A stretch of DNA of 25,804 nt from a virus (lineage: Duplodnaviria > Heunggongvirae > Uroviricota > Caudoviricetes): the IMG/VR virus record IMGVR_UViG_2897352509_000001; one strand, 5' to 3'. Each line of letters begins with the position of its first letter. Within the stretch, counting starts at the first letter, position 1. This document shows, piece after piece, positions 13,241 through 16,516 of this stretch. Made by a program: the position numbers and the translations under genes. A model generated the notes under the pieces. The model did no database searches and was not told the DNA's origin. It was given only the letters and a program-made list of their open reading frames with translations.

Positions 13241-13657
13241 GTGTCTCAACCACTTTCGGAAATATTGACATGGGATGATGAACAATGGGAGGTATTTGTC
13301 CATGATTGGCTTATTGTCTGTAAATCAGATGATTACCCGTGGAGCGAACGTTTGGGAGGAGCTGGAGATAAAGGTAGAGACGTTGTTGGATATAAATCGG
13401 ATCCTAACGTAGAAGGTTATTCTTGGGATAATTATCAATGCAAACTGTACAAAAAAAGTTTAGGGTTCTCTGATGTTGTAGTTGAGTTTGGAAAACTTAT
13501 CTATTTTACTCTGAATGGTGATTATCCCATCCCTCAGAAGTACTTTTTTGTGGCACCCTATGATTTATCTACTACATTTTCTAATTTATTGAAAAATAAA
13601 AACGAGCTTAAAAAAGCAGTCCTTGATTCATGGGATTCAGCAATTTCAAAAAAATAA
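13241..13657 (+). CDS. Cargo gene A, 5' part: Mrr-like PD-(D/E)xK restriction-endonuclease-fold domain
   Basis: GTG start 8 nt after AGGAG. Motif WEVFVHDWL...GGAGDKGRDVVGY...YQCKLYKK fits the Mrr catalytic core pattern (G-x-G-D-x-G-x-D ... Q-x-K). The frame ends inside an A7 tract. Confidence 0.6.
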   Translation: MSQPLSEILTWDDEQWEVFVHDWLIVCKSDDYPWSERLGGAGDKGRDVVGYKSDPNVEGYSWDNYQCKLYKKSLGFSDVVVEFGKLIYFTLNGDYPIPQKYFFVAPYDLSTTFSNLLKNKNELKKAVLDSWDSAISKK

Positions 13658-14247
13658 CTAAAAAGATTGATATTCCATTAGATGATGAAATAAAAAAATA
13701 TATTGAGGATTTTGATTTTAGTATTTTTTACTCTCTACCCTTATCATTGATTTTAAATGATATTGCAAATACACACCTTTATTTTAAGTACTTTAACGAG
13801 CTGTATGTCGTGAGAATCCCTCCAAATGAAATTCCAACATACAATTCAAAAAAAGAGTCTGTATATGTTAATGCACTGCTTCAAGCCTATTCAGAGCATG
13901 GAAATAAAACTTATAGTTCTTTCTTAGAGCTTGATGATCCATACAGACGACACTTTAATAATAGTAGAAATGATTTTTATTTTGCATCTTCGCTTGAGGT
14001 TTTTGTCCGCGAAGTATTTAAAGATGATGTATTCAAAGCATTGAAATGTTACATTTCATCTTCAATTGAACCCGTCTTTTATGAAGACCATAATTATGCA
14101 TTTATTAGGTGTAATGCAGTCTTGAAGCAGGCTGTTCTGACACCAATTGCACATTCAGTACTATCAAAAATATGTGAAGCAAATGATAAAAAAGGAATAT
14201 GCCATCATTTGGTTAATGATGGTGAAGTAATTTGGACGGTGAGATAA
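13630..14247 (+). CDS. Cargo gene A, 3' part (uncharacterised domain); probably the continuation of 13241..13657 across an A7 tract
   Basis: 205-aa AT-rich ORF. One extra A in the A7 run at about 13649-13655 would fuse it in frame to the upstream Mrr-like ORF, giving a ~335-aa protein. Confidence 0.55.
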   Translation: MGFSNFKKITKKIDIPLDDEIKKYIEDFDFSIFYSLPLSLILNDIANTHLYFKYFNELYVVRIPPNEIPTYNSKKESVYVNALLQAYSEHGNKTYSSFLELDDPYRRHFNNSRNDFYFASSLEVFVREVFKDDVFKALKCYISSSIEPVFYEDHNYAFIRCNAVLKQAVLTPIAHSVLSKICEANDKKGICHHLVNDGEVIWTVR

Positions 14248-14705
14248 TGGTTAGAATTTATAATTCAAGTTTAGAAGTGGCATGTCGAATGGCGAAAGTG
14301 CTCGTCGCTATTTATCCTTCTTCATTAAGCCTTGAACGGCTTATTTGTTTTGATTTTATTTTAGTAAATCTTAAGGATTTTTTACCTGAAGAGATTAGTC
14401 TTCATCCTCCAATACCCCGTAGAGATGCTCAGTTAGCCCTAAAACGAGAGATTGTTTTAGAATCATTGGCTTTGTTGCAAGGCTATGAACTAGCCTCAAA
14501 AATTTATACACATCGTGGTTTTGTATATAAAGCTTCTGAAAAAACATATGCATTTACAAATTCTCTACATAATGAATATGTTGCGCAGATGGAGCATAAT
14601 ATAAATTTGGTGGTTAAGTTATATAGTGATATTCCTGATGAGCAGTTGCAATCAATTATAAAAAATAAAATTGGCAAATATGATATGGAATTTAATTATG
14701 AATGA
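14247..14705 (+). CDS. Cargo gene B: small predicted helical protein of unknown function (middle component)
   Basis: ATG at 14247 overlaps the upstream stop (TAATG). About 152 aa. The listed ORF 14232..14705 is a TTG-initiated extension. Confidence 0.6.
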   Translation: MVRIYNSSLEVACRMAKVLVAIYPSSLSLERLICFDFILVNLKDFLPEEISLHPPIPRRDAQLALKREIVLESLALLQGYELASKIYTHRGFVYKASEKTYAFTNSLHNEYVAQMEHNINLVVKLYSDIPDEQLQSIIKNKIGKYDMEFNYE

Positions 14706-15330
14706 CAATTTTTTTACGTTCAGAAAAATAAAGGTAACCGGATTCAATAAATTAGATGCTATAATTGAATTTGGTTCTAAATTGACTATTTTATATGGTG
14801 GTTCTGACTCTGGAAAAACATACATATATTATTTGATTCGATATTTATTAGGGAGTGAAAAACTAAAAAATAAAGATATCGATCATGCTCAAGGTTATGA
14901 TTTAGCCTATCTGGAATTTAATTTTCAAGGTAGGGTAATGACAATTGAGAGGTCTCTTCAGGATAGCGCCCATTACAGATTATATGATTCGAGTATTGAA
15001 AATGTTAGTGAAGCTAATCTGTTGATGGTTTTTTCCAAAAGTGCTTCGTCTAAAAAGAGTTTTTCATCATACTTTTATGGTAGGTTGAATTTCAAAGAGG
15101 CTAAAGTAAGAACAAACTTAAGTAATACTCTTCATAAATTTAATCTTAATAATGTTTTTGAATTTTTTTGTATTGATGAATTAAGAGTGTTAACTGAGAA
15201 GTCGTTAATTCTTTCTGATATTCCTAGCGAGGAGACAAAAAGAAAGTCTGAATTTAAATTCCTTTTAACTCAGAGAGATGATACTAACTCCTTAGCAGAA
15301 AAACCAAATAAAAAAGCAAGATATTTTTAA
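14698..15330 (+). CDS. Cargo gene C: ABC-ATPase N-terminal head half (Walker A) of a Rad50/SMC/RecF-like protein
   Basis: ATG at 14698 overlaps the upstream stop (ATGAATGA). FRKIKVTGFNKLDAIIEFGSKLTILYGGSDSGKTYIYYLIRYLLG has the ABC/SMC N-terminal pattern with a P-loop. It ends at an in-frame TAA at 15328-15330. Confidence 0.65.
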   Translation: MNDNFFTFRKIKVTGFNKLDAIIEFGSKLTILYGGSDSGKTYIYYLIRYLLGSEKLKNKDIDHAQGYDLAYLEFNFQGRVMTIERSLQDSAHYRLYDSSIENVSEANLLMVFSKSASSKKSFSSYFYGRLNFKEAKVRTNLSNTLHKFNLNNVFEFFCIDELRVLTEKSLILSDIPSEETKRKSEFKFLLTQRDDTNSLAEKPNKKARYF

Positions 15331-15360
15331 AAAAATCAAATTGCAAATATTTATGAGGAA

Positions 15361-15750
15361 TTGAAAGCGCAATTAATTTATCCTGAATATGATCAAGTCA
15401 TTGTTTCAAGAGAACTTGAGAAAGTAGAGCAAGATATTGAATCATCGAAAGATATATTGAAAGGTATTGTTGATGCACTTGATGATAAGAAGCAATTATT
15501 AAAAGAGTTAAGTGATGAATTATATTCAATCAGTGACAGGGAAAAATACTTATCATTACTCATTGAAAGATTTAGTCTTCTTAAAGACCAATACTTTATA
15601 GATCTACAAAGAATAGATGTTGTATCACAGGCGAATTTCTATTTAAATAATTTTGCAGATATTTATTGTGAGTTCTGTAATACACCGCAAAAAAAGAAAA
15701 TGAAATATCATATGATGATTGTTTTTTGTCGTGTAATGCAGAAAAATTGA
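15361..15750 (+). CDS. Coiled-coil segment with a CxxC zinc-hook-like motif; same frame as 14698..15330 and separated from it only by one TAA codon
   Basis: No ATG start; the frame is open from 15331. Heptad-rich sequence ending ...CEFCNTPQKK inside an A7 tract. Confidence 0.5.
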   Translation: MKAQLIYPEYDQVIVSRELEKVEQDIESSKDILKGIVDALDDKKQLLKELSDELYSISDREKYLSLLIERFSLLKDQYFIDLQRIDVVSQANFYLNNFADIYCEFCNTPQKKKMKYHMMIVFCRVMQKN

Positions 15751-15950
15751 AAATCAAAAGCCAGCTGAAAGGATTAATTGAATCAATCGGATCTAATGTT
15801 CGCGAACATGAATTAATTATGTTAAGAAAAAATGATGTTAATGAAATTTATCAATCAGAAAAAAGTGATTTTAAGACGTTAGAAGATAAAAATATAAAAC
15901 AATACATTCATCTCTTGAATCACTTTATGAATATAAAGACAATCTTTTAA
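15726..15950 (+). CDS. Coiled-coil continuation fragment (TTG-initiated ORF); probably part of the same ABC-ATPase gene after a frameshift
   Basis: One extra A in the A7 tract at about 15689-15695 joins the upstream frame to this one, giving ...CEFCNTPQKKENEISYDDCFLSCNAEKLKIKSQ... Confidence 0.45.
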   Translation: MSCNAEKLKIKSQLKGLIESIGSNVREHELIMLRKNDVNEIYQSEKSDFKTLEDKNIKQYIHLLNHFMNIKTIF

Positions 15951-16516
15951 TGGATCACACAAAACATAGCATTCTATCTTCATTACAAGATAAAGAAGAT
16001 GATGTTGACGAACTTAAATACTCCGCCGAGGACTTTGACTCCTTAACAGTAGCTGATTTGTATGATATAGAAATAGCGATGCAAGACTTTTTGAATGATA
16101 TAAATTTTGAAAATTCTAAAGATAACAAAGTGCGATTTGACGAAGATACATATGACTTTAATATCAATGGGAAACGCCGAGGAATGTTTGGTAAAGGTAC
16201 CCGTGCAGTAATGCATGCTATATTTACCATTTGCTTTGCGGAATTTTTATCAAGAAAAGGGAATCCATTCATTGGATTTGTTGTGCTTGATAGTCCATTA
16301 GTGACGCACTTTGATAAAGATAGAGGGGGTTCTCTATCGGATGTTAATAGCGTCAGTCTCAGTGATTCATTTTATCACGCATTAATCAAAAGGGACTATA
16401 ATTTCCAGATTGTAATTCTTGAGAATAAAGGTCCGACGTTCCAAATAAAAATTAATGATGCAAATAAAATCCATAACTTAAATAAGAATGGAAGCTCTGG
16501 TTTTTATCCTGTTTAA
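15950..16516 (+). CDS. ABC-ATPase C-terminal head half (degenerate signature region, Walker B-like FVVLDSP, D-loop)
   Basis: 188-aa ORF whose ATG overlaps the upstream stop. ...GKGTRAVMHAIFTICFAEFLSRKGNPFIGFVVLDSPLVTHFD resembles an ABC signature, Walker B and D-loop with a non-canonical Ser after the Walker B Asp. Confidence 0.55.
   Translation: MDHTKHSILSSLQDKEDDVDELKYSAEDFDSLTVADLYDIEIAMQDFLNDINFENSKDNKVRFDEDTYDFNINGKRRGMFGKGTRAVMHAIFTICFAEFLSRKGNPFIGFVVLDSPLVTHFDKDRGGSLSDVNSVSLSDSFYHALIKRDYNFQIVILENKGPTFQIKINDANKIHNLNKNGSSGFYPV

What the first reader, a model, noticed from the sequence alone, without database searches (positions are those of the whole stretch)
13241..16516. Candidate three-component defence locus in the int-proximal cargo slot of a P4-like satellite: Mrr-like nuclease, small helical protein, Rad50/SMC-like ABC ATPase
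Seen in sequence: a co-directional, translationally coupled, AT-rich gene block sits directly after the satellite integrase and before ogr/psu/sid. Gene A has a Mrr-type PD-(D/E)xK core (GGAGDKGRDVVGY...YQCKLYKK) plus an unknown C-terminal domain. Gene B is small and helical. The last gene has an ABC N-terminal head with a P-loop (GGSDSGKT), a long heptad-rich middle with a CxxC motif, and a C-terminal head with Walker B-like and D-loop motifs. Established knowledge: P4-like satellites carry antiviral cargo between psu and int, and effector + small protein + SMC-like ATPase is the layout of Lamassu-family (DdmABC-like) and ABC three-component systems. Inference: this is a Lamassu-like or related system. 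The Walker B Asp is followed by Ser rather than Glu and I cannot place the effector C-terminal domain, so it may be a divergent or unclassified variant.
Basis: partly seen in the sequence, partly recalled or inferred. Interest (0 to 1): 0.85.

Follow-up and report, generated by a model that had tools for sequence, protein, structure and literature searches.

The report
Decayed Lamassu defence operon in satellite
This is a known anti-phage system (a Lamassu operon with an Mrr-type nuclease) carried by a P4-like satellite prophage of E. coli O157:H7, but here it is a dead copy broken by three frameshifts and a stop codon, so it is an ordinary, already described element rather than a new defence system.

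Summary
PADLOC, Pfam, profile-to-PDB and fold searches all identify a short (type II) Lamassu / ABC-3C operon, lmuA-lmuC-lmuB. LmuA has an Mrr-type PD-(D/E)xK nuclease domain plus CTD6. LmuC is MC2. LmuB is a Rad50-like ATPase with a CxxC hook.

It is not a divergent or unclassified variant. Existing models cover all three proteins end to end. The 'D-S' Walker B is invariant in the family and documented for short Lamassu. This same locus (O55:H7 allele) was published as 'Lamassu-var' in 2024.

In this window the operon is a pseudogene array with four lesions:
- lmuA is split by a 1-nt loss in an A-run.
- lmuB carries a TAA nonsense codon.
- lmuB also carries two 1-nt losses.

Four single-base edits restore proteins of 335, 152 and 606 aa, colinear with intact orthologues in Proteus and Pantoea. 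The Pantoea orthologues sit in the same int/ogr-psu-sid slot.

The lesions are not sequencing errors. They recur in about 309 complete O157:H7/O55:H7 genomes, no E. coli genome has an unbroken allele, and further lesions accumulate lineage by lineage.

Verdict: already known, non-functional here, low interest.

The parts
11869..11893 (+). 25-nt exact copy of the 3' end of tRNA-Thr (thrW). It is the attachment-site copy at the integrase end of the satellite. No complete tRNA is present in the window.
   Evidence: the DNA search exact match, 0 expected by chance. ARAGORN finds no tRNA. Intact relatives sit next to proBA.
12005..13237 (+). Satellite tyrosine integrase (410 aa, intact in this window).
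   Evidence: Pfam Arm-DNA-bind_3, Phage_int_M and Phage_integrase.
13241..13657 (+). lmuA fragment 1: Mrr-type PD-(D/E)xK nuclease domain (GTG start, SD AAGGAG 7 nt upstream). It ends at a TAA created by the frameshift.
13648..13654 (+). Lesion 1: A7 run. Adding one A (A8) restores a 335-aa LmuA. Fixed in every E. coli copy.
   Evidence: junction SAISKKI[T/S]KK in intact orthologues; no genome matches the repaired allele; best is 116/117.
13654..14247 (+). lmuA fragment 2: linker plus ABC-3C C-terminal domain 6, the LmuA sequestration/oligomerisation domain. The mechanical ORF starts at ATG 13630.
14247..14705 (+). lmuC (152 aa, intact): ABC-3C middle component 2. Its start overlaps the lmuA stop (TAATG).
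   Evidence: Pfam MC2 PF20288 6e-30. PADLOC LmuC PDLC03871 2.5e-36. RefSeq annotation.
14698..15330 (+). lmuB fragment 1: N-terminal half of the ABC head with Walker A GGSDSGKT (14797-14820). Its start overlaps the lmuC stop (ATGAATGA).
   Evidence: PADLOC LmuB PDLC03863 8.4e-50, profile positions 3-199. Pfam AAA_23 and SMC_N.
15328..15330 (+). Lesion 2: TAA nonsense codon at lmuB codon 211. It is TTA (Leu) in O55:H7, and Leu in all close homologues.
15331..15750 (+). lmuB fragment 2: ascending coiled coil and the CxxC zinc-hook motif (CEFC 15667-15678).
   Evidence: PADLOC LmuB 2e-16, profile positions 230-329. C324 and C327 are invariant. The zinc hook is described for LmuB.
15689..15695 (+). 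Lesion 3: A7 run where EDL933 and O55:H7 have A8 (in frame). This extra frameshift is present in 66 of 309 records.
15696..15950 (+). lmuB fragment 3: descending coiled coil (the mechanical ORF starts at TTG 15726).
   Evidence: Colinear with intact homologues after repair.
15896..15899 (+). Lesion 4: A4 run. Adding one A restores ...KNIKTIHSSLESLYEYKDNLL... Shared by all O157:H7 and O55:H7 copies.
   Evidence: (no genome matches the repaired allele; best is 128/129).
15950..16516 (+). lmuB fragment 4: C-terminal half of the ABC head, with GKGTRAV at 16190-16210, Walker B GFVVLDSP at 16274-16297 and QIVILENKG at 16406-16432.
   Evidence: PADLOC LmuB 5.1e-37, profile positions 428-608. Pfam DUF3732 5.3e-5. 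Invariant G499/K500/G501, D532/S533/P534, Q571 and N577.
16543..16576 (+). Terminator-like hairpin (13-bp stem) 27 nt after the lmuB stop.
   Evidence: RNA fold -20.9 kcal/mol, z = -3.9.
16926..18504 (-). Satellite genes ogr/delta (16926-17198), psu (17204-17755) and sid (17752-18504), which bound the cargo slot.
   Evidence: Pfam Ogr_Delta 1e-16, Psu 4.8e-42, Psu-like 7.1e-10. RefSeq annotation.

Best explanation
The block is the remnant of a short (type II) Lamassu anti-phage operon, lmuA-lmuC-lmuB, with an Mrr-type nuclease effector. It sits in the int-proximal cargo slot of a P4-like satellite prophage integrated at thrW in the E. coli O55:H7/O157:H7 lineage.

How intact relatives work (from the literature, not tested here): an LmuB dimer (a Rad50-like ABC ATPase with a coiled coil and zinc hook) together with LmuC holds one LmuA monomer inactive by burying its C-terminal domain. 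Binding of DNA ends or replication intermediates plus ATP-driven head engagement releases LmuA. Released LmuA tetramerises through its C-terminal domain, pairs its nuclease domains and degrades DNA, which aborts the infection.

In this window that machine cannot be built.
- A 1-nt loss separates the LmuA nuclease domain from its C-terminal domain.
- LmuB is cut at codon 211 by a TAA and shifted out of frame twice more downstream.
- Only lmuC is intact.

The lesions arose stepwise. Two frameshifts occurred before the O55:H7/O157:H7 split. The nonsense codon arose in O157:H7. A further frameshift arose in the sublineage of this window, and an independent one arose in O55:H7. This is the pattern of a gene set drifting without selection.

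Shown here: family, architecture, lesions, their distribution, and intact orthologues. Inferred: loss of function, and the mechanism of the ancestral system.
For: Family:
- PADLOC on repaired proteins gives LmuA 8e-89 (3-333 of 335), LmuC 2.9e-36 and LmuB 2.3e-117 (6-605 of 606). The fragments hit consecutive parts of the same profiles.
- Pfam finds CTD6 at 7.7e-30 and MC2 at 6e-30.
- The LmuB family profile hits solved LmuB chains best (9hqu 1.5e-16, 9uxl, 9ny5), then SMC and Rad50 heads.

Pseudogene state:
- Seven ORF fragments and the frame map.
- Four single-base edits give proteins colinear with 606-aa and 335-aa orthologues: Proteus 87%/92%, Pantoea 75%/86%.
- An intact syntenic operon lies between int and ogr-psu-sid in L007 and L006.
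- The same lesions occur in about 309 complete genomes. No genome carries a repaired allele at either founder lesion.
- The stepwise series is shown.
- Coding SNPs are 6 missense, 1 nonsense and 2 synonymous.

Mechanism of intact systems: PMC12663957, bioRxiv 10.1101/2025.03.14.643221. All three genes are required: Millman et al. preprint.
Against: - A paper reports that the O55:H7 allele of this locus, itself frame-disrupted by my comparison, made T2, T4, T6 and RB69 plaques smaller (PMC11754643). Residual activity of broken alleles is therefore not strictly excluded.
- The A-run deletions automatically leave -1 slippery heptamers in the correct phase: A_AAA_AAA followed by TAA at 13648-13657, and A_AAA_AAG at 15690-15696. 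A small fraction of full-length product from those two sites is conceivable.
- No expression or phenotype data exist for the window allele.
- The nuclease-fold evidence comes from a homologue's model, not from the window protein itself. Pfam Mrr_cat on the window fragment is sub-threshold (E = 0.2).
Confidence: 0.88

Rival explanations
1. The locus is a working defence system despite the interruptions. Either -1 ribosomal or transcriptional slippage on the A-runs restores the frames in a fraction of products, or the fragments assemble non-covalently (split ABC heads can reconstitute).
For: - Weak plaque-size phenotype reported for the frame-disrupted O55:H7 allele (PMC11754643; allele state).
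- Lesions 1 and 3 lie in phase-correct slippery heptamers.
- The last fragment's ATG overlaps the preceding stop (TAATG at 15948-15952), which would allow reinitiation.
Against: - In the window allele a TAA at codon 211 cannot be bypassed by slippage.
- Lesion 4 is only an A4 run.
- Three or four low-efficiency events would have to coincide in one LmuB chain.
- The LmuA A-run length is fixed in all about 300 genomes, with no A8 allele, so there is no sign of phase variation.
- Additional lineage-specific lesions and a 7:2 non-synonymous to synonymous SNP count argue that selection has lapsed.
- All three intact components are needed in tested Lamassu systems.
- The published phenotype was minor, and the insert began at the first codon of lmuA without its native Shine-Dalgarno sequence or a promoter.
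Confidence: 0.07
2. The frameshifts and the stop codon are sequencing or assembly errors in homopolymer runs, and the real genome has three intact genes.
For: Three of the four lesions are 1-nt length changes in A-runs, a classic error type.
Against: - Identical lesions occur in about 300 independently sequenced complete genomes from many laboratories and platforms.
- One lesion is a base substitution (T to A at 15329).
- The alleles follow lineages: O55:H7, EDL933-type and window-type.
Confidence: 0.01
3. The system is a new, unclassified ABC three-component variant, distinct from Lamassu because of its Walker B D-S and an unplaced effector C-terminal domain.
For: - Single-sequence searches against PDB chains find nothing.
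- Pfam Mrr_cat is sub-threshold on the window fragment.
- The authors of PMC11754643 called it 'not previously described' in P4 hotspot catalogues.
Against: - Dedicated PADLOC LmuA, LmuB and LmuC profiles match end to end.
- CTD6 and MC2 are curated Pfam families.
- D-S-P is invariant in the family and lies within the published short-Lamassu Walker B consensus.
- Mrr is a listed LmuA effector class, and a Lamassu-Mrr system was tested experimentally.
- Solved LmuA and LmuB chains are the top structural and profile matches.
Confidence: 0.03
4. The ATPase belongs to another ABC/SMC-like family (Gabija GajA, PARIS AriA, RecF/RecN, SbcC, a transporter), so the block is a different kind of system.
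For: The N-terminal fragment gives weak hits to GajA, AriA, PtuA and mad3 (E 1e-6 to 1e-3), and the family profile gives hits to SMC and Rad50 heads.
Against: - Those hits cover only the P-loop region and are 40 or more orders of magnitude weaker than the LmuB hits.
- The partner genes are LmuA/CTD6 and LmuC/MC2, not GajB, AriB or Mre11.
Confidence: 0.01

Closest known systems
'Lamassu-var' of E. coli O55:H7 TB182A (CP038295 nt 4,116,517-4,120,474), Domainator paper, NAR 2024, PMC11754643
   Same: It is the same locus in the same satellite, 99.7% identical over 3.6 kb. The paper describes it as the most frequent cargo (259 instances, '3 to 9 CDSs') between Psu and integrase in E. coli, with PADLOC homology to type II Lamassu.
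   Different: - The window allele has two more lesions (TAA at 15328-15330; A7 instead of A8 at 15689-15695) and lacks the O55-specific 1-nt loss at 15859-15864.
- The paper does not mention frameshifts or pseudogenes (0 text hits) and treats the locus as functional on the basis of smaller T-even plaques.
Lamassu-Mrr (expanded Lamassu family, Millman et al. 2022; system from E. coli SE15 tested in MG1655)
   Same: Same family and effector class: LmuA with an Mrr-type nuclease, plus LmuC and the SMC-like LmuB. It works by abortive infection, and the ATPase, the effector and lmuC are all required.
   Different: That system is intact and active. Its sequence relationship to this one was not measured here. 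It is not detectable at DNA level.
Type II / short Lamassu LmuACB = DdmABC (V. cholerae 9NY5, 9NYG, 9NXX; S. enterica 9HQU, 9HQX)
   Same: - Same lmuA-lmuC-lmuB architecture.
- LmuB has Walker A, a coiled coil, a CxxC zinc hook and a variant Walker B.
- These are the best profile and fold matches. Mechanism is described.
   Different: - LmuB there is 650-660 aa against 606.
- Sequence identity is only about 8-13% for LmuA.
- Walker B is D-Q there and D-S here.
ABC-three-component (ABC-3C) systems as encoded in Pfam (CTD6 PF20282, MC2 PF20288)
   Same: The effector C-terminal domain is CTD6 and the middle component is MC2, both above the gathering thresholds. RefSeq annotates them the same way.
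   Different: None in kind. This is another name for the same class.
Rad50/SbcC-Mre11/SbcD DNA-end repair complex
   Same: ABC head, coiled coil and CxxC hook. The heads are detected by the LmuB profile (Rad50 3.7e-6, SMC 1.9e-6). It is the proposed evolutionary source of Lamassu.
   Different: There is no Mre11-type phosphoesterase partner. Walker B lacks the catalytic Glu. The partner proteins are LmuA and LmuC.

Membership tests
Lamassu (short / type II; ABC-3C) | LmuB: an SMC/Rad50-like ABC ATPase with Walker A, a long coiled coil, a CxxC hook, and a C-terminal head with variant Walker B hhhhD[Q/S/T/E] | tested here: met
   Met at the level of sequence homology. PADLOC LmuB gives 2.3e-117 over 6-605 of the repaired protein. 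Invariant residues are G34/S36/G39/K40, C324/C327 and D532/S533/P534. The profile hits solved LmuB 9hqu at 1.5e-16. The consensus is from PMC12663957.
Lamassu (short / type II; ABC-3C) | LmuA: a variable N-terminal effector fused to the conserved ABC-3C C-terminal domain | tested here: met
   [not shown]
Lamassu (short / type II; ABC-3C) | LmuC: a small middle component encoded between lmuA and lmuB | tested here: met
   Pfam MC2 6e-30. PADLOC LmuC 2.5e-36. Intact 152-aa ORF at 14247-14705.
Lamassu (short / type II; ABC-3C) | Co-directional, tightly packed lmuA-lmuC-lmuB operon | tested here: met
   Overlaps TAATG and ATGAATGA. Same order in L005, L006 and L007. Terminator hairpin after lmuB.
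Lamassu (short / type II; ABC-3C) | Complete, uninterrupted reading frames for all three components, as required for a functional system | tested here: not met
   lmuA is in 2 fragments and lmuB in 4. The lesions are at 13648-13654, 15328-15330, 15689-15695 and 15896-15899. It is a member by descent, not a working member.
Lamassu (short / type II; ABC-3C) | Anti-phage or anti-plasmid protection that depends on the ATPase, the effector and LmuC | not testable with these tools
   The only literature is a weak plaque-size effect for the O55:H7 allele. The requirement for all three genes was shown in other Lamassu systems.
Mrr-type PD-(D/E)xK nuclease (effector domain of LmuA) | Restriction-endonuclease-like fold with conserved D...(E/Q)xK catalytic residues | tested here: met
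   - Invariant D43, D47 and Q66-C67-K68 in 53 homologues, all present in the window (motifs at 13355-13393 and 13433-13450).
Mrr-type PD-(D/E)xK nuclease (effector domain of LmuA) | Match to Pfam Mrr_cat (PF04471) above the gathering score | tested here: inconclusive
   The window fragment gives E = 0.2, 12.2 bits against a cut-off of 21. Six of 53 family members match at E <= 0.01, best 1.6e-6.
P4-like phage satellite | Core gene set: int, ogr/delta, psu, sid, alpA, and the alpha primase-helicase | tested here: met
   Pfam hits for all of them. RefSeq annotation. The same layout is seen in Pantoea relatives. Psu is only about 31% identical to P4 Psu according to PMC11754643, so this is a divergent branch.
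P4-like phage satellite | Integration at a tRNA gene with duplicated att core at both ends | tested here: inconclusive
   A 25-nt thrW 3' copy lies at 11869-11893 next to int. No second copy was found in the window with up to 3 mismatches.

The most novel reading that the evidence does not exclude
The broken operon may not be fully dead. The A-run deletions leave phase-correct -1 slippery heptamers: A_AAA_AAA followed by a stop codon in lmuA, and A_AAA_AAG in lmuB. Low-level frameshifting or split-subunit assembly could therefore give a leaky, attenuated Lamassu, at least in the O55:H7 and EDL933-type alleles. That could explain the weak T-even phenotype published for the O55:H7 allele.

Independently, the locus is a clear, lineage-fixed, stepwise-decaying defence pseudogene in a P4-like hotspot. 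A 2026 survey reports this situation as rare (<1% of P4 pseudogenes), so it could serve as a dated natural example of the 'inactivate first, replace later' route.
Probability: 0.08. Interest if true: 0.45.

Novelty: already known. Interest (0 to 1): 0.2.

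Why it matters
There is little new biology here. The family, its mechanism, its presence in satellite hotspots and even this particular locus are already published.

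Three practical points follow.

1. Defence-system censuses that count HMM hits will score O157:H7 as carrying a Lamassu system. In fact every complete O157:H7/O55:H7 genome carries only a frame-disrupted remnant.

2. The single published functional test of this locus used a frame-disrupted allele cloned from its first codon without a promoter. Its weak phenotype should therefore not be taken as the activity of this Lamassu-Mrr type. A four-base repair, or the intact Pantoea or Proteus orthologues, would give the proper test.

3. The ordered accumulation of lesions along the O55:H7 to O157:H7 lineage is a small, datable case of defence-gene decay inside a satellite hotspot, where such pseudogenes are reported to be rare.

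Tried and rejected
- Single-sequence phmmer of repaired LmuB and LmuA against PDB chains gave only noise. The LmuA family profile against PDB sequences also gave noise. Fold comparison and the LmuB profile were needed instead.
- I suspected that lmuA was recurrently broken in the Proteus and Pantoea relatives, because the gene calls were 145 and 201 aa. I rejected this. tblastn and translation show one open 335-codon frame with a GTG start that the gene caller missed.
- An 89-nt query around the nonsense codon, meant to count TAA against TTA alleles, returned no match, probably because of low-complexity masking. The distribution of that lesion therefore rests on the four aligned genomes and the annotation patterns.
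- A search for a second att copy at the right end of the satellite found none.
- The promoter scan showed no enrichment over shuffles (22 against 20.5 expected), so no promoter is assigned.
- Distant-mode blastn did not recover the experimentally tested E. coli SE15 Lamassu-Mrr or any other E. coli relative, so no direct comparison with that system was made.
- Sequencing error and phase variation were considered and rejected (see rival explanations).

Full report
**1. What is in the sequence**

The window is a stretch of E. coli O157:H7 chromosome. The region 13100-16700 is 100% identical to strains TR01, TW14359, EC4115 and others.

Between the integrase gene (12005-13237, +) and the minus-strand genes ogr, psu and sid (16926-18504) lies a plus-strand block at 13241-16516. 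Its GC content is 0.26-0.35, against 0.45-0.51 on either side.

The first gene starts with GTG, 3 nt after the integrase stop, and has an AAGGAG Shine-Dalgarno sequence 7 nt upstream. The next two junctions overlap (TAATG at 14245-14249 and ATGAATGA at 14698-14705). A 13-bp hairpin with a T-rich tail follows the last stop.

The block is not three open genes. The mechanical ORF list shows seven pieces:
- Gene A is in two frames, 13241-13657 and 13630-14247.
- The ATPase is in four pieces: 14698-15330, 15361-15750, 15726-15950 and 15950-16516.

**2. What it is**

- Each fragment hits consecutive parts of one PADLOC profile per gene. LmuA PDLC03852 covers positions 10-140 and then 141-333. LmuC matches PDLC03871. 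LmuB PDLC03863 covers 3-199, 230-329 and 428-608.
- Pfam finds the ABC-3C C-terminal domain 6 in gene A (7.7e-30) and ABC-3C middle component 2 in gene B (6e-30). It finds AAA_23/SMC_N and DUF3732 in the ATPase pieces. RefSeq annotates the genes the same way.
- A profile of 18 LmuB homologues finds the solved Lamassu LmuB chains first (9hqu 1.5e-16, 9uxl, 9ny5). SMC and Rad50 heads come next.
- For gene A, I modelled an intact homologue (P0038, 67% identical) with a 53-sequence alignment and got pLDDT 93.7. Foldseek places solved LmuA chains first (9nxx, 9ny1, 9hqx; probability 1.0).
- The residues D43, D47 and Q66-C67-K68 are invariant in the family and present in the window.
- Pfam Mrr_cat itself is sub-threshold on the window fragment (E = 0.2), but it matches 6 of 53 relatives.

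The block is therefore a short (type II) Lamassu / ABC-3C operon with an Mrr-type effector.

**3. The surrounding element**

Pfam confirms int, Ogr_Delta, Psu, a Psu-like Sid, AlpA and a primase-helicase. That is the P4-like satellite gene set.

A 25-nt exact copy of the thrW 3' end lies at 11869-11893, next to int. No full tRNA is present in the window, and no right-hand att copy was found.

Relatives in Pantoea have the same order, proBA-int-lmuA-lmuC-lmuB-ogr-psu-sid-alpA-...-primase. The cargo-slot claim therefore holds. According to PMC11754643, Psu is only about 31% identical to P4 Psu, so this is a divergent branch of P4-like satellites.

**4. The lesions**

Reading the three frames and aligning with EDL933 and two O55:H7 genomes gives the following.

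| Site | Window | EDL933 (O157:H7) | O55:H7 | Consequence |
|---|---|---|---|---|
| 13648-13654 (lmuA) | A7 | A7 | A7 | One more A restores a 335-aa LmuA |
| 15328-15330 (lmuB) | TAA | TAA | TTA (Leu) | Nonsense at codon 211 |
| 15689-15695 (lmuB) | A7 | A8 (in frame) | A8 (in frame) | Extra frameshift in the window's sublineage |
| 15859-15864 (lmuB) | A6 | A6 | A5 | Private 1-nt loss in O55:H7 |
| 15896-15899 (lmuB) | A4 | A4 | A4 | One more A restores the frame |

- Four single-base edits give LmuA 335 aa, LmuC 152 aa and LmuB 606 aa. The PADLOC profile lengths are 336, 156 and 610.
- The repaired LmuB is colinear, through every junction, with intact 606-aa proteins from Proteus mirabilis (87% identity) and Pantoea alhagi (75%), and with 609-aa relatives at about 45% identity.
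- The repaired LmuA is colinear with intact 335-codon genes in the same loci, at 92% and 86% identity.

**5. The lesions are real and fixed**

- The block occurs in 309 of 5,426 complete E. coli genomes. All the records listed are O157:H7, O55:H7 or strains without a stated serotype, and all are at least 99% identical.
- Queries carrying the repaired junctions find no perfect match anywhere. The best matches are 116/117 and 128/129, which means the 1-nt gap is present in every genome.
- The window's extra A7 allele at 15689-15695 is present in 66 of 309 records.
- Within the coding sequence, the lineage's SNPs are 6 missense, 1 nonsense and 2 synonymous. With the caveat of small numbers, that is what relaxed selection would give.
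- Some strains have further damage. IS1203 is inserted in the integrase of TW14359 and inside the Lamassu block in strain 6535NalR.

Sequencing error is excluded. The picture is one of progressive decay since before the O55:H7/O157:H7 split.

**6. How it works, or worked**

For intact Lamassu, the literature describes the following steps (PMC12663957; bioRxiv 10.1101/2025.03.14.643221):
- An LmuA1-LmuB2-LmuC1 complex forms, in which the LmuA C-terminal domain is sequestered near the LmuB zinc hooks.
- DNA ends are recognised by an LmuB head and LmuC.
- LmuA is released with ATP.
- Released LmuA tetramerises through its C-terminal domain.
- DNA is then cleaved non-specifically, giving abortive infection.

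Lamassu systems with an Mrr effector have been shown to defend E. coli, and the ATPase, the effector and lmuC are all required.

In the window allele, the nuclease domain (residues 1-138) is uncoupled from the C-terminal domain. LmuB stops at codon 211, before the coiled coil, the hook and the C-terminal head. I infer loss of function. This step is inference, not measurement.

**7.

- The Walker B Asp followed by Ser is not a peculiarity of this copy. D-S-P is invariant in all 18 aligned homologues. Short Lamassu LmuB has the consensus hhhhD[Q/S/T/E], and the solved systems have D-Q.

**8. Prior description**

The Domainator paper (NAR 2024, PMC11754643) found this cargo to be the most frequent one between Psu and integrase in E. 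coli (259 instances, '3 to 9 CDSs'). It named the system Lamassu-var and cloned it from CP038295 nt 4,116,517-4,120,474.

That record is O55:H7 TB182A, my locus L004. The insert starts at the first base of the lmuA GTG and runs to the start codon of ogr. By my alignment that allele has the lmuA frameshift and two lmuB frameshifts.

The paper's text contains no occurrence of 'frameshift', 'pseudogene' or 'truncated'. It states that the plasmid had no promoter, and it reports only smaller T2, T4, T6 and RB69 plaques at the highest dilutions. This is the only evidence against complete loss of function, and it is weak.

**9. Residual-function rival**

The sequence shows that the two A-run deletions leave in-phase -1 slippery heptamers. 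These are A_AAA_AAA followed by TAA at 13648-13657, and A_AAA_AAG at 15690-15696. A -1 slip at either site would regenerate the ancestral peptide.

The TAA at 15328-15330 and the A4 site cannot be rescued efficiently. A full-length LmuB from the window allele would need three rare events in one chain. I give this rival about 7%.

**10. Context in the field**

A 2026 survey of P4 and P2 hotspots reports that recognisable defence pseudogenes are rare (<1% of P4 pseudogenes). It favours swapping of intact systems over inactivation followed by replacement (PMC13586616). This locus is a clear example of the rarer route, in a satellite that has been inherited vertically through a clonal pathogen lineage. 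Whether that survey's data set included this divergent satellite was not checked.

**11. Verdict**

The system is an already known kind, the locus itself is already published, and in this window it is a decayed pseudogene array.

Interest is low (0.2). It comes mainly from the caution this raises for defence censuses, the re-reading of the published functional test, and the clean stepwise decay series.

Noticed in passing
L004 (NZ_CP038295.1 4116815-4120815, reverse complement), equivalent to window 13241-17198: The published 'Lamassu-var' insert (CP038295 4,116,517-4,120,474; PMC11754643) is the O55:H7 allele of this locus. It carries the lmuA frameshift and two lmuB frameshifts. It begins at the first base of the lmuA GTG, so it lacks the native Shine-Dalgarno sequence and any promoter. 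The paper does not mention any disruption.
   Followed up: yes
window 23273-24229 (-): A 318-aa orphan gene lies in a second AT-rich patch (GC 0.30-0.37) just after the satellite primase. It has no Pfam or PADLOC hit and only a marginal PHROG hit. It is conserved at 44-80% identity in Citrobacter, Providencia, Pantoea, Proteus, Serratia and Salmonella, with no annotation. It could be a second cargo gene of the satellite.
   Followed up: partly
window 11869-11893 (+): An exact 25-nt copy of the thrW tRNA 3' end lies about 110 nt upstream of the satellite integrase. [quoted passage not shown]
   Followed up: partly
window 11132-11497 (-); L001 7723-8157: A truncated IS transposase fragment (integrase core domain, N-terminus missing) sits between the lambdoid prophage remnant on the left and the satellite.
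   Followed up: no
L001 8644-11138 (TW14359) and hit H38 (strain 6535NalR): In some O157:H7 strains IS1203/IS629 has inserted into the satellite integrase (TW14359) or inside the Lamassu block (6535NalR). This is further decay of the same element. The integrase is intact in this window.
   Followed up: partly
window 10347-11090 (+): An AT-rich (GC 0.34-0.37) AraC-family regulator gene lies just left of the IS fragment. It has no PADLOC hit.
   Followed up: partly
window about 1-9400 (by correspondence with L001 1-6115): The left part of the window is a lambdoid prophage remnant: cI/cro/cII-like genes, a frameshifted replication gene, a tail-fibre cassette with a pinE invertase, and a LEM-3-like GIY-YIG protein. 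The satellite therefore lies in tandem with another degraded prophage.
   Followed up: no
window 15948-15952: The stop codon of lmuB fragment 3 overlaps the ATG of fragment 4 (TAATG). This would allow termination-reinitiation and separate synthesis of the C-terminal head fragment.
   Followed up: no
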